Part shown: positions 11,507 through 26,500 of the stretch, in pieces | Layout of the letters: each line of letters begins with the position of its first letter | Position numbering within the stretch: the stretch's first letter is position 1 | Assembly (NCBI RefSeq): GCF_002441935.1 | Contig: NZ_CP023668.1 | Coordinates: 744,001-808,000, forward strand | From: Mesoplasma lactucae ATCC 49193 | GTDB taxonomy: Bacteria; Bacillota_I; Bacilli_A; Mycoplasmatales; Mycoplasmataceae | Direction of reading: 5' to 3' | DNA length: 64,000 nucleotides | Position numbers: made by a program

Positions 11507-14500
11507 TGAAATAATTTTATTAAGAAAATTAAAAACTCAACAGAAGAAATTGAAGTTTCAATCGTTGGTAAATACATCGATTTACCAGATGCTTATCTTT
11601 CAGTAATTGAATCATTAAAAATTGCTGGTTATGACAATGACAGAAAAGTAAAAATTAAATGAGTTCAAGCAGAAGATATCACACCAGATAACGTTGATTC
11701 AATCTTAAAAGATTCTCAAGGAATTTTAGTTCCAGGAGGATTTGGATCACGTGGAGTTGAAGGAATGATTACAGCTGCTAGTTATGCTAGAAAAAATAAT
11801 ATTCCTTACTTAGGATTATGTTTAGGAATGCAAGTTGCGACTATTTCTATGGTTCGTGATTTATTAGGAAAAACTCAAGCGACTTCAACTGAATTTGATG
11901 CTCAAACTAGTGAACCTGTATTTGATTACATTCGTGGAGTTGATAAAGAAAACATTGGTGGAACTTTAAGATTAGGAAACCAACCAACTAAACTATTAAA
12001 AGGTAGTTTAGCAGAAGAACTTTATCAAGCAGATACTGCTCATGAACGTCACCGTCACCGTTATGAATTTAACGCTCCTAAATATCGTGAAGCATTAGAA
12101 GATAAAGGAGTTTTATTCTCAGGAATTTTTGAAGAAAAAGATTTATATGAAATTGTTGAAATTCCAGGACATAAATTCTTTATAGCTTCTCAATACCACC
12201 CAGAATTTACATCAAGACCAAACAAACCAAACCCATTATTCAACGGATTTGTTAAAGCTATTAAAGCTGATCAAGATGCTAAAAAATAATATATATTAAA
12301 GAGAATTCACAATTAGTGAATTCTTTTTTTAATTTTTCAAGTTTTTTAACTAGTCGCTTCCTTTAAAAAGAGGGGTGGATTGTATACAATATTAAAGTTA
12401 TATTAGATTATGCAAATAGACTGGAGCACCAAACTAGGATGGAAATGCTACTAACACCTGAAGATCTTGAACGCCAGACCGATCAAGTTAATGAAGGTAA
12501 GAAAAAAGTAGAGAAAGTTGAAAAGAAGATGGCTTCTTGACAACAATCCCAAGTTGACGATTTACAAAGACAATACGACAAAGCTGTAAAAAAAGTTGAA
12601 TATGCTCGTGACAAGAAAAAAGACAAAGTCGAACTTTCAAAAGCACGTAAACGTTCAAAAGAATCTTTAGCTGATGTTGATAAATACCAAGATAAAATCT
12701 TGAAAGTCAAAATCGATAACGAAAAAAGAATTCTTGATAAAGCTAAATACGAACATAAAGTTCAAATCGCTGATATTAAGAAAGCTGAAAAAACAAAATT
12801 AGATGAATTTAAAAATGCTCATGATAAAAAAGTAACAAGCATCAAAAATACAAAAGATGAAGCAACTGTTATTAATTTAATTGAACAAAAATTCGCTGAA
12901 GAAAACAAAAAAATTGAAACTCAAAAAAAAGTTAGATTAATTAATGCTGATAACTATCATGAACAACAATTAGCAAACGCTAAAAAAGTTAAATGTCATA
13001 AAACAAAATTAGCACAAAAAGAAAATCTTTCAGAAGTTGAGATGACTAAACGCTTAGGGGAAATTAAAACTAATTACTCTAAAAAAATTGCTCAAATTGA
13101 AGAAGACACTACTGCTCGTATCAGTAGAGCTGAACAAGAAGCTACTGAAAAACATGCAAGTGTTGAAAACAGAAAAGCAGATGCAATTCAAAAAGCAAAA
13201 TCACGTTCTTATGGTGATTGCAAAGATTGTTTAGTAAACACAAACAGTGAGTATCAAACAAAAGTTGACAACATAAAAGCAAAAAGTGCGCATAAAACTG
13301 AAAAAGCTGATGCTACTTTAGCAAAAGCTCAAAGCAAATATGATGAAAACGTTTCAAAAATTGAAGCTAAACATCAAGAAAGTGCCAAAAAAGCACATGA
13401 TAAATTTGCTGCTAAAAAACCTTTAAGTGCTGATAAATTAAAAGCTTTAAAACATAAAAATGACGTAATCATTGCTGGATTAACTTCTTATCAAAAAGAT
13501 AGAGTTGCTGAATATGATCACGAAATTGATTTATTAACACAAAACCTTAACCAAGGGGTTATTGATATCAATGATGGAGCAAAATCAAACATTTCTCAAG
13601 CTGAGAAAACTAATGTTGATGCTGTTTCTAGAAAATATGATAAAAAGAACTTCAAATTAAACTTCAAAAAAGAAGCTCGTAAATTAATTTCTGAAGATGA
13701 ATGAAATCATAAACAACATCATAAACTTGTTAGAAATCTTTACGATGAATCAAATAAAAACTATACACCAACATCAGTTATCTTTGCTGATTTCTTTGTT
13801 AATCAAAAAGATCATGCCGAAGATTAATGATTAAACACTCAAACTAAATTTGCTCGTTGTAGTGAATGAGGAATTAAAGAGTGATTAAACGTTAAAATTT
13901 GAAAAATGCCTATGTACATTTACATCGTATTATTAGGTATTGCTATCGCTGTTATTGCTACAGGATATGCACAAATGAACATGTTATACCCAATGTTTAT
14001 TCTATTTACCATTGCGATTATTGGGGGAGAAATCTTCTCAAGAATTCCAATCTGAAATAAATATTTAGGTGGAGCTGTTATGGGATGTATGTTTATTGGT
14101 GCATTCCTTGTGTTCTTTAACGCAATTCCAAAAGATTGAATGGTTTATGACTCAATCAAAACTTGATTTAACGGACAAGGATTCTTAGACTTCTATATTT
14201 CTGTTATCTTAATCTGTTCTGTTTTAGTCGTACCAAGAAAAATCTTGATGAAAGCCTTAGGAGGATTCATTATTATTCTTGCTATCGGTTCTGTAGCTGG
14301 TGCTGGATTAGGAATCTTAGGAGGATTAATCGTTGGGGTTGATGCTAAATCAACAATTATTAACTATACTTTACCTATTCTTGGGGGAGGTAACGGAGCT
14401 GGAACTGTTCCAATGTCTCAAGTTATTTCTCAAAACTATGGAGATAAAGTTGGAGGAGATTGATACTCAGGAGCAGTTGCTATTACAGTTATTGCCAACA

Positions 14501-23500: not shown

Positions 23501-26500
23501 CTTATAGCAGTATTGCATCACTTTCATCAGGTGACTGAGATGGATACTTCTCATATAAAGAGATAAAAAAAACCGGTAACACCGGGGTTGGAACTTTTGA
23601 TCAAGGAAATGGGGAAATGATTGCCATTGATGGTAATTATTACCAATTATTAAGTGATGGAAGTGTCAATGCTGTTCATGACGACTGGACAGCACCATAT
23701 GCAGTTAATGTTAACTTCACACCTGAATTCGCTATTGAAATGGGTGAAGTTAGCCAAACTGAATATCTTAATAAAATGCTTGGTGAAATTGCAAAACATG
23801 GAAAACAATATATGTATGCAATTCGCATTACAGGAGAATGAAGTGAAATTACTTCAAGAACTGTTAGCACCATTCCAAAACCATATCCAACCATAAAAGA
23901 AATAAATAATATTCAACGTGTGAGAACCTTTGATAACATTAAAGGAAATATCGTTGGATTTTATACACCACCATACCTAAACACAGTAAGTGTTGATGGT
24001 TTCCATCAACACTTCATCAATGACACAAGAGATTGTGGTGGACATATCTTGGATTTCAAAGCTAAAAAAATGAAAATTGAATTTACGCGAGTAAATGATA
24101 TTGAATTAAAAATTAATAATCATGATTTAAATTATCATGATAGTTTACAAGCTGAAATCGAAGCTGCTGAAAAAGCAAAATAATATCGATAAGTATTTTT
24201 ATAAAACATAACTAAGTCTGCAAAAAGACTTAGTTTTTTTGTTATATACTTTTTTTAGAGAATAAAGGAGCTTTTATATGGCACAAAACCAAGAACCAAT
24301 TGTTATTGTTAATAATGTTCATAAATCATATCCTAAAAAAGAAGTTTTAAAAGGGTTAAACTTAACTGTTAACCGTGGAGATAAAATTGCTGTTTTAGGA
24401 GCAAATGGTGCTGGAAAATCAACTTTGGTTGATATGATAGCTTTAACTTCAAAACCAACTAGTGGTGATATTCAAATTAATATTCCTGGTAGTGAAACTG
24501 AAGTTAAAAAAGAAATTGGAATTCAATTTCAACAAGGAGAATGACCAGCCGGAATTACTCCAAAAATTATGCTTAACTTTTATAAACAAGTCTTTCCAAG
24601 ATTTACCGATGAAAGAGAAAAAGAATTAATTAAAGTTTTTGGAATTGAAGAATTCTATAAGCAACAAATTAAAAATTTATCTGGTGGACAAAAACAACGT
24701 TTTAATGCGATGATTTCTGATTTAAATAATCCGCAATTATTAATCTTAGATGAGTTAACAACTGGATTAGATATGAAATTACAATTCCAAATTATTAATT
24801 ATTTTATTGCGACTGTTGAAAAAGAACATCAATCATTGATTATTGTTTCTCATAGACCTGATGAAGTTGAGGCTTTATGTAACCGTGCAATTATTATTCA
24901 TGATGGAATTGTTTGATTTGATGATACAGTTGAAAACATTGATAAAAATTATGGAGGAGTTAAGCAATTGATGCAAAAGTACTTTGATGGTGATTTAAAA
25001 GCAGATCCAAAAGCAAATGCTCCAATCAAAGACTTTAACCCAAAACAAGGAACAAATAACGAAGGAGAACAAAGCAATGAAAAACACAAAAAAAGAAGCT
25101 GATTCAAAAAACACAAATAAGAATTATGGCTATGTTAAAAATCGCTTCGAACAAAAATGCCGTGATTTTAATTCAACCTTTGTTTTAATTGCTAAATCTT
25201 GAATTAAAGATCCAAGTGGAATTATTTCTTTATTTGTAATTCCAACCTTCTATTTTGTAATCTTTTACTTCTTATTAAGAAATAAATATTCACAATCATT
25301 AATTGGGTATTTAATGTTGCCTCCATTAACAGTGATTACAACTTTAGGAACTGGATTAATTAATTGAAAAAATTCTGTTTTCTTAAAAAGAATTGATACA
25401 ACAGGAATTAGTAAAACAACCTTTTTATTATCCTTATGAACCTTTAACTTATTGGTTGGTTTATTAGGAGTATGTGTACAAATTATTGTTGGATTAATTA
25501 TTGCTCAAGGTGATGCAGTTGACCAATATAATTCAATGAATTGAGGTTGATTTATCTTAGGAACAATCTTTATTTCCTTAATGTCTATTGGATTAGCAAC
25601 CTTAATTGCTGGAATCTTTTCTTCACAAAGTATGGTTCAAGGAGTAACAATGATTATTTACTTCTTATCATTATTCTTATCTGGAATTATGATTCCTTAT
25701 ACTACTATTGGTAGTGTTAAAGCATTAAGAATTATTTCTTATTTCACACCTTATATGTATGGAAATGCTGTTACTTCAAAAAGTATTGAATCGGCATGAC
25801 AAATGTTTGACGGACCAACTTATCAAGTGTTTACTGAAATCTGACAACCATGTGTTGCTAGTGCTGGAATTATCGTAGCCTTATTTGCAATCACAACCAT
25901 GACTTTTAAATGAAGTTCTAATGATTAATAACAATAAGAAAACTAGCTTTTTAAAGCTAGTTTTTTACATTAGACAAATTGTTTAATTTCTCTTAGATTA
26001 GTTTATTTATCATAGCAAGATTAGTATAATAAAAGTGAACGAAAGAAAGAGGAAAATTTATTATGCCAAAATTATACAGCAATAGATTAGTAAACGCTCA
26101 CAACATGGTTCATGATGCATTTGAAAACCACTACGCAATTGGTCACTTCAACATCAACAACCTAGAATGAACTAAAGCAGTTTTAGAAACTGCACAAAAA
26201 ACAAATACCCCAATTATTGTAGCTACTTCAGAAGGAGCTATTAAATATATGGGTGGTATTCAAGTAGTAGTAGCAATGGTTGATGCTTTAATGGAAACAT
26301 TAAACATCACTGTACCAGTTGCATTACACTTAGACCACGGTCAATCAGTAGAAATGGCTAAAGCATGTATCGACGCTGGTTACTCATCAGTAATGTTCGA
26401 TGGATCACACTTACCATTCGAAGAAAACATTGAAAAAACTAAAGAAGTTGTTGCTTATGCAAAACCTCATGAAGTTTCAGTTGAAGCTGAAATTGGTTCA

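What a model noticed while it worked through the whole genome (the two positions that open the first line are those of the whole stretch)
13906..24183. Eda-family aldolase clade is the missing oxaloacetate decarboxylase of Mollicute citrate fermentation
g00636 (765106-765741, KDPG/KHG-aldolase family) lies between the citrate lyase cluster and alsS-alsD. It belongs to a clade found only in citrate-lyase-bearing genomes of the family and always beside cit genes. It is the likely oxaloacetate decarboxylase that completes citrate -> oxaloacetate -> pyruvate -> acetoin/lactate.
Evidence so far: CitG-Aldolase adjacency occurs in 10 genomes of the order but in only 19 of 10,528 genomes overall that have both. 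Of 30 family homologs, a 12-member clade (support 100/99) has cit genes within 1.5 kb in 12 of 12 cases, against 0 of 18 for the other homologs (68, 72). The 12 genomes with CitF (of 81 scored) are exactly those 12 (80). No OadA/pyruvate carboxylase, malic enzyme or FAH-family enzyme was found in any of 5 such genomes tested, this one included (81-83). The catalytic Glu and Schiff-base Lys are kept, while the GGxL segment becomes T/S-A/G/E-D/E/K-L in the clade (72). PMC12239587 (passages) states that genes for further transformation of oxaloacetate are lacking in a related citra [...]
(Added by a program. Inside this text positions count along the whole contig: contig position 744,001 is position 1 of the stretch shown here. 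"Call 12" and the like, gene names such as g00115 and contig names such as C1 are that model's own, and its searches are not shown. The text may have been shortened before it was handed on; [...] marks where a part breaks off. The agent that wrote the report below was given it as the finding of a first reader that could run no searches.)

Follow-up and report, generated by a model that had tools for sequence, protein, structure and literature searches.

The report
Aldolase-type oxaloacetate decarboxylase for citrate fermentation
A distinct branch of the KDPG-aldolase family travels with the citrate-splitting genes of insect- and plant-dwelling wall-less bacteria, phytoplasmas included, and likely performs the oxaloacetate-to-pyruvate step that was reported missing from their citrate pathway.

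Summary
The aldolase gene (21106-21741) lies between the cit cluster and alsS-alsD. In the family the clade occurs in exactly the 12 CitF genomes, beside cit genes in 12 of 12 loci against 0 of 18 other homolog loci. It also stands directly before citD in 12 phytoplasma genomes, and its tree matches the CitE+CitF tree. In the one citrate-lyase genome of the order sample without it (G151), the operon ends in an LDH-family gene with the malate-dehydrogenase arginine, a likely swap of the oxaloacetate-removing step. Catalytic residues are intact, the phosphate-loop glycine is replaced, and cyanobacterial Eda enzymes decarboxylate oxaloacetate in vitro. Corrections: citG is on the minus strand, so the aldolase heads a likely aldolase-alsS-alsD unit; 2 of the 12 genomes, and 12 of 13 phytoplasmas, encode a malic enzyme. 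Against: no assay, Ca. P. mali keeps the gene without citrate lyase, G029 has a stop in it. Best reading: a Schiff-base oxaloacetate decarboxylase (0.78). Known chemistry in a new pathway role.

The parts
12439..13827 (+). N-terminal charged extension of the citrate transporter gene, cut from the transporter domain by one in-frame TAA at 13825-13827
   Evidence: same frame as 13906-15192; homologous sequence continues across the stop in four relatives' single ORFs
13906..15192 (+). citS-like 2-hydroxycarboxylate transporter domain
   Evidence: PF03390 E 2.5e-117, profile 4-415 of 415
15262..15549 (+). citD, citrate lyase acyl carrier protein
   Evidence: TIGR01608 above cut-off
15549..16463 (+). 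citE, citrate lyase beta subunit
   Evidence: TIGR01588 E 1.2e-93, below cut-off
16447..18042 (+). citF, citrate lyase alpha subunit
   Evidence: TIGR01584 above cut-off
18023..19198 (+). CitX fused to a GntR-FCD regulator
   Evidence: PF03802 17-178, PF00392 190-248, PF07729 260-379
19164..20234 (+). citC, citrate lyase ligase
   Evidence: PF08218, TIGR00124
20231..21040 (-). citG, on the minus strand, divergent from the aldolase
   Evidence: PF01874
20985..21012 (+). promoter-like site TTAACA-16-TATAAT upstream of the aldolase
   Evidence: best of 51 hits (11 of 12 matches), but the total is not above shuffles (55.1), so a lead only
21106..21741 (+). Eda/KDPG-family class I aldolase, 211 aa; proposed oxaloacetate decarboxylase. 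R21, E44, K132, T159 kept; clade residues S17, T22, T181, G185
   Evidence: PF01081; model pLDDT 97.8; Z 31.7, rmsd 1.4 over 201 residues to 1WA3; alignments
21770..23461 (+). alsS, catabolic acetolactate synthase, 28 bases after the aldolase stop
   Evidence: NF006378 and TIGR02418 above cut-off
23482..24183 (+). alsD, acetolactate decarboxylase
   Evidence: TIGR01252 above cut-off
24210..24235 (+). terminator-like hairpin after alsD
   Evidence: 10-pair stem with T run; none called on the + strand between aldolase and alsD

Best explanation
This gene encodes a KDPG-aldolase-family enzyme that is inherited together with the citrate lyase genes and likely acts as their oxaloacetate decarboxylase. 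Shown: gene content, linkage, shared tree, fold, catalytic residues. Inferred: citrate enters by the 2-HCT carrier and CitDEF splits it to acetate and oxaloacetate. Lys132 would form a Schiff base with the oxaloacetate keto group, CO2 would leave from the beta position, and Glu44 with water would release pyruvate, with no metal or biotin. The Gly-to-Thr change at 181 would disfavour KDPG. In this genome, where no pyruvate dehydrogenase E1 or acetate kinase was found, the pyruvate would go to acetoin through the adjacent AlsS-AlsD or to lactate, giving proton consumption and carrier exchange rather than ATP. In genomes with both enzymes it could give ATP through acetate.
For: (1) Co-occurrence: 12 of 12 family CitF genomes. 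In the genus of G401 (L069, titled Ca. Phytoplasma pyri) 13 of 40 have the clade, 12 with full CitF and the aldolase directly before citD; 25 have neither. (2) Shared history: 15 of 19 splits shared with the CitE+CitF tree, no conflict among splits at 90 or more, patristic rho 0.95. (3) Swap: G151 nests inside the aldolase-bearing cit group (100), has citG 14 bases from citD, no PF01081 match, and ends its operon with an LDH-family gene with Arg at the LDH Gln position. All 12 clade genomes of the family have Gln, as do 112 of 120 homologs. (4) Alternatives not found: OadA-type 0 of 79 over cut-off, FAH 0 of 26, PEPCK 0 of 5, RraA-type 0 of 5, malic enzyme absent from 10 of 12. In G000 no OadA, OadB, CitM or aspartate aminotransferase. 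(5) Control: 4 of 4 non-Mollicute cit clusters read carry OadA or a malic-type enzyme. (6) Canonical substrate supply lacking: Edd 0 of 26; in G000 only a 27% PfkB-family hit to KdgK. (7) Chemistry measured for cyanobacterial Eda and lost in the Lys mutant.
Against: No assay. Ca. P. mali (L071, G403) keeps an intact gene with only citD/citF remnants and no citC or citG; its branch has 12 synonymous and 10 non-synonymous changes, like its relatives. G029 has a stop in the gene while its cit ORFs look whole; it has a second, non-clade Eda. 12 of 13 phytoplasmas and 2 of 12 family genomes have a malic enzyme, which papers propose for this step. Measured Eda efficiencies on oxaloacetate are low, 0.44-0.58 per s per mM. 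Pyruvate kinase and others have the side activity. The swap is one lineage and its enzyme still scores as LDH. This genome's transporter gene has an in-frame stop. Kin and transferred cassettes are not independent samples.
Confidence: 0.78

Rival explanations
1. A pyruvate aldolase for a non-phosphorylated 2-oxo acid tied to citrate use, such as 4-hydroxy-2-oxoglutarate or a condensation product of oxaloacetate and pyruvate (metabolite repair), with decarboxylation only a side activity.
For: Same catalytic residues and altered phosphate loop. KHG cleavage is a family activity and was proposed for the P. mali Eda. Retention in P. mali and beside malic enzymes.
Against: Leaves oxaloacetate without a found outlet in 10 of 12 family genomes, and does not explain why loss coincides with an Arg102 dehydrogenase. 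No supply pathway for KHG was looked for.
Confidence: 0.12
2. Oxaloacetate is removed otherwise (malic enzyme, pyruvate kinase or LDH side activity, spontaneous decay, export by the carrier) and the aldolase is an ordinary KDPG aldolase that rides with the cassette.
For: Malic enzyme in 14 of 25 clade genomes. Side activities are common. MDH activity without an mdh gene is reported for mollicutes. G029 tolerates a stop.
Against: Kept through reordering and cross-order transfer with pairwise dN/dS about 0.2 in three phytoplasma genes. No Edd. Gly181, present in 39 of 40 aligned non-clade rows, is Thr or Ser in 24 of 24 clade rows.
Confidence: 0.06
3. A non-catalytic or regulatory partner of citrate lyase, or the lyase acts on citramalate and needs no decarboxylase.
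For: In 12 phytoplasma and 3 family loci the gene abuts or overlaps citD. Citramalate-type clusters score as CitF too.
Against: Catalytic residues invariant in 24 of 24. The citramalate-type CitEF form a distant group inside glutamate mutase operons, whereas these group with Klebsiella and lactic-acid-bacterial citrate lyases.
Confidence: 0.04

Closest known systems
Class I KDPG/KHG aldolase Eda (PF01081, TIGR01182; T. maritima 1WA3, E. coli 1EUA)
   Same: Fold (Z 31.7, rmsd 1.4) and Arg17/Glu40/Lys129/Thr156 equivalents.
   Different: Below all NCBIfam cut-offs, no Edd or KdgK context, G-to-T/S in the last-strand loop, fixed link to citrate lyase.
Cyanobacterial EDA (Synechocystis Sll0107; S. 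elongatus EDA), bioRxiv 10.64898/2026.04.01.715859
   Same: Eda enzymes in genomes without Edd that decarboxylate oxaloacetate in vitro; the S. elongatus enzyme is reported to prefer it.
   Different: Promiscuous and slow, in vivo role open, not described as part of a citrate cluster. Sequence relation to this clade not tested.
Dedicated oxaloacetate decarboxylases: OadGAB sodium pump, malic-type CitM, FAH-type, PA4872-type (review PMC8100219)
   Same: Same reaction; OadGAB and CitM hold the same place in cit clusters.
   Different: Those need biotin or divalent metal; none is a Schiff-base aldolase in the passages read.
Citrate-to-acetoin route of Lactococcus lactis biovar diacetylactis (route recalled)
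   Same: 2-HCT carrier, CitCDEFXG, decarboxylation, AlsS-AlsD.
   Different: CitM there, an Eda-family protein here; CitX fused to a GntR regulator; carrier with a long charged N-terminus.

Membership tests
Class I KDPG/KHG aldolase family | PF01081 domain and (beta/alpha)8 fold | tested here: met
Class I KDPG/KHG aldolase family | Schiff-base Lys, acid-base Glu, carboxylate-binding Arg, Thr | tested here: met
   K132, E44, R21, T159 in 24 of 24; roles
KDPG aldolase proper (Entner-Doudoroff or uronate pathway) | Gly-Ser/Gly phosphate loop after the last strand (role recalled) | tested here: not met
   T/S at 181 in 24 of 24 against G in 39 of 40; TAG-P for TGG in this genome and G004
KDPG aldolase proper (Entner-Doudoroff or uronate pathway) | KDPG supply (Edd, KdgK) in the genome | tested here: not met
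   Edd 0 of 26; no KdgK ortholog in G000, 94.6% complete; KdgK not searched in the others
KDPG aldolase proper (Entner-Doudoroff or uronate pathway) | KDPG cleavage | not testable with these tools
   needs an assay
Oxaloacetate decarboxylase of citrate fermentation (function) | encoded in or beside the citrate lyase cluster | tested here: met
   12 of 12 family loci, 12 of 12 full-CitF phytoplasma loci with sequence there
Oxaloacetate decarboxylase of citrate fermentation (function) | oxaloacetate to pyruvate plus CO2 at a useful rate | not testable with these tools
   family precedent only
Oxaloacetate decarboxylase of citrate fermentation (function) | no other decarboxylase in the genome | tested here: inconclusive
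   none found in G000; malic enzyme in 14 of 25 clade genomes; PEP-mutase type and GTP-PEPCK not searched
OadGAB, CitM, FAH-type decarboxylases | their own domains (carboxyltransferase, malic, FAH) | tested here: not met
   only PF01081 matches the protein
Citrate (pro-3S)-lyase cluster | citC, D, E, F, X, G and a carrier | tested here: met
   groups with known citrate lyases; carrier gene has an in-frame stop upstream of the domain

The most novel reading that the evidence does not exclude
The clade is a fifth type of dedicated oxaloacetate decarboxylase: metal- and biotin-free, evolved from a KDPG aldolase by closing the phosphate site, far faster on oxaloacetate than promiscuous Eda enzymes. 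It spread between spiroplasma-type bacteria and phytoplasmas as part of one citrate cassette and is the route by which about a third of phytoplasma species turn phloem citrate into pyruvate and ATP.
Probability: 0.45. Interest if true: 0.8.

Novelty: new variant of a known kind. Interest (0 to 1): 0.66.

Why it matters
A 2025 paper says genes for using oxaloacetate are lacking in a citrate-lyase-bearing ant symbiont, leaving the benefit of citrate unclear (PMC12239587). Phytoplasma papers give the step tentatively to malic enzyme. This names one small candidate enzyme for both, testable in a coupled assay. If right, it adds an enzyme type to the oxaloacetate node, corrects an annotation (KDPG aldolase in genomes with no Edd), and bears on how uncultured phytoplasmas gain energy. 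G151 offers a second testable case, a native LDH likely turned malate dehydrogenase.

Tried and rejected
Profile search of 1.84 billion representatives: queue full three times, never run; confinement to Mollicutes rests on the word-indexed search (33 full-length clusters above a gap from 312 to 198 bits; all named ones Spiroplasma, Mesoplasma or phytoplasma). The careful aldolase tree did not finish; the quick tree is cited. No RNA holder listed. Contigs of run X3 show no other letter at the transporter stop, but the contig has only 19 bases on one side and the sample may be the source; X1, X2, X4 laid nothing. Two phytoplasma genomes with CitF and no aldolase hit (G613, G676) are uninformative: contigs end inside citF, which is frameshifted in G613. 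The larger genomes of G401's order with CitF were dropped as a comparison: the 10 loci read of about 68 lie in glutamate mutase operons, likely citramalate lyases, and their Eda hits are unlinked and outside the clade. alsD does not track the cassette: 23 of 81 genomes, 8 of the 12. Promoter counts are not above chance. G018, G019, G023 were not scored in some searches. PMC2211689 on the phosphate pocket is not held, so that role is recalled. Earlier findings of the scan gave no report on this clade. No complex prediction was run, as no binding is claimed.
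Full report
Anatomy. Read with table 4, the region holds a 2-HCT carrier, citD, citE, citF, a CitX-GntR fusion and citC on the plus strand, citG on the minus strand, then the aldolase, alsS and alsD on the plus strand. The aldolase starts at 21106, ends 28 bases before alsS, and a terminator-like hairpin follows alsD. 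So in this genome it likely heads an aldolase-alsS-alsD transcript that diverges from citG. The carrier gene has one in-frame stop upstream of its transporter domain, so citrate uptake in this strain is uncertain.

Family check. Among 79 scored genomes, 28 have a match; 12 hits stand at 45-100% identity and other full-length hits at 30-37%. CitF occurs in 12 of 81, the same genomes. cit genes lie within 1.5 kb in 12 of 12 clade loci and 0 of 18 others. The link survives three gene orders: after citG, after citC (G008), and between citG and citD. G029 has a single stop at codon 51.

Beyond the family. A scan of species genomes found the clade in records titled Ca. Phytoplasma pyri, prunorum and mali. 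In that genus 13 of 40 genomes have it. Twelve have full CitF with the aldolase directly before citD, P. mali has only remnants, two are fragmentary and 25 have neither. P. pyri and P. prunorum keep citC and citG elsewhere; P. mali has neither. The 24 intact sequences form one clade (SH-aLRT 98, quick tree); G029 was left out as broken. A profile search found 33 full-length clusters above a sharp score gap, all named ones Mollicutes. Aldolase and CitE+CitF trees on 22 genomes share 15 of 19 splits, with no conflict among strong splits and rho 0.95. The gene has therefore stayed with the lyase since the cassette's ancestor, across two orders and two genetic codes. These counts are of kin and of a transferred cassette, not independent events.

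A natural swap. In 400 scored genomes of the order, CitF occurs in 13: the 12 and G151. G151 nests inside the aldolase-bearing group and has the order citC-citS-citG-citD-citE-citF-citX with 14 bases where relatives have the aldolase. Two near-identical metagenome contigs agree and no aldolase was found in the genome (93% complete). Its operon ends in an LDH-family gene with Arg where solved LDHs have Gln; that this marks malate dehydrogenase specificity is recalled. All 12 clade genomes of the family have Gln, as do 112 of 120 homologs including the nearest outgroups. Loss of the aldolase thus coincides with a likely route from oxaloacetate to malate. This is one lineage, and NCBIfam still calls the protein LDH.

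Other outlets. OadA-type domains: 0 of 79 over cut-off. FAH: 0 of 26. ATP-PEPCK and RraA-type: 0 of 5 each. G000 gave no hit to OadA, OadB, CitM or malic enzyme, and its one aminotransferase hit looks like SufS. All four non-Mollicute cit clusters read (of 88 plasmid records) carry OadA or a malic-type enzyme inside; the Mollicute clusters carry the aldolase instead, apart from one phytoplasma locus with a malic enzyme about 6 kb away (L225).

The enzyme. The model is a confident barrel closest to T. maritima KDPG aldolase. Arg17, Glu40, Lys129 and Thr156 of that enzyme (PMC3188589, passages) map to R21, E44, K132 and T159, invariant in the clade. S17, T22 and T/S181 are in 24 of 24 clade rows; position 181 is Gly in 39 of 40 aligned others. 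That this loop binds phosphate is recalled, so loss of KDPG binding is inferred. No Edd was found in 26 genomes. Synechocystis EDA decarboxylates oxaloacetate at 0.58 per s per mM and loses this in the Lys mutant; the S. elongatus enzyme is reported to prefer oxaloacetate (bioRxiv 10.64898/2026.04.01.715859, abstract and passages).

Mechanism. Most likely: citrate to acetate plus oxaloacetate, Schiff-base beta-decarboxylation to pyruvate, then disposal. G000 and G004 show no acetate kinase and no convincing PDH E1, and these two place alsS directly after the aldolase, which fits a redox-neutral outlet to acetoin. That link is local: alsD is in 8 of the 12 and in 15 other genomes. In phytoplasmas acetate kinase follows citX in some loci, which fits ATP formation.

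Results against. P. mali retains the gene with no sign of relaxed selection (12 synonymous, 10 non-synonymous changes on its branch, against 13:8 and 11:5); the loss of cit genes may be recent, or oxaloacetate may come from elsewhere, or the enzyme has another substrate. G029 has a stop. Malic enzymes coexist. No expression data were listed.

Literature. Seen as passages: PMC12239587 (gap stated), PMC6245734 (no mention of oxaloacetate or aldolase in the main text), PMC3984173 and PMC4518686 (step given to malic enzyme), PMC3633829 and PMC10577292 (cit genes in phytoplasmas, no aldolase in the main text), PMC2459194, PMC3322544 (P. mali Eda as KHG or KDPG aldolase), PMC4607517 (Spiroplasma cit cluster related to a phytoplasma one; kdgA listed as a separate transfer), PMC8100219 (four dedicated decarboxylase types); PMC8964421 and PMC5270565 added nothing. 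Ten searches showed no paper giving this role to the cit-linked aldolase. The library lacks most subscription papers, and figures and supplements were not read; pathway maps there may show the gene.

Verdict. Observation largely confirmed, interpretation supported and widened. The protein is a member of the class I KDPG/KHG aldolase family, fails the context and motif tests for a KDPG aldolase proper, and likely works as the cassette's oxaloacetate decarboxylase (0.78). New variant of a known kind; interest 0.66.

Noticed in passing
window 12439-15192: The citrate carrier gene is one 917-codon frame with a long charged N-terminus, broken by one TAA at codon 463; relatives have single ORFs of about 635-925 aa. 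The carrier domain downstream is complete and has an ATG.
   Followed up: partly
L148:8218-9192 (G151), L281-L283: Native-type LDH with a lineage-specific Gln-to-Arg change at the end of an aldolase-less cit operon; the only LDH-family match in G151. In L283 the cit operon is deleted to a citC-citX remnant while the gene stays.
   Followed up: partly
window 18023-19198: CitX-GntR fusion, also in six family loci (L041-L043, L045-L047); split into two genes in L048, L049, L051; GntR part not found in G004 or G008 loci.
   Followed up: partly
L071:9664-11430: Ca. P. mali has citD and citF remnants right after its eda gene, so this gene is likely the orphan of a deleted citrate operon.
   Followed up: yes
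L226:5356-6543, L227, L228: Acetate kinase follows citX in phytoplasma loci (confirmed for L226; same N-terminus in the other two).
   Followed up: partly
L227, L228, L209: Large inserted ORFs, possibly intron-type mobile elements, interrupt citG, citE or the cluster in some phytoplasma loci; not classified.
   Followed up: no
L233-L242: Ten genomes of G401's order carry a glutamate mutase, methylaspartase and citrate-lyase-like operon with fused CitX-CitG, likely glutamate fermentation by citramalate lyase.
   Followed up: partly
L013-L025: A separate long-branch Eda group in genus g13 sits after a likely transketolase and lacks the usual TGG and GS motifs.
   Followed up: no
L050:4987-9744 (G045); L045:9145-10174 (G051): G045 has a second partial cit copy (citE-citF-citX-gntR) without clade aldolase; G051 citC is split in two ORFs.
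   Followed up: no
G000 and G004, whole genome: No acetate kinase and no convincing pyruvate dehydrogenase E1, unlike three other clade genomes tested.
   Followed up: yes
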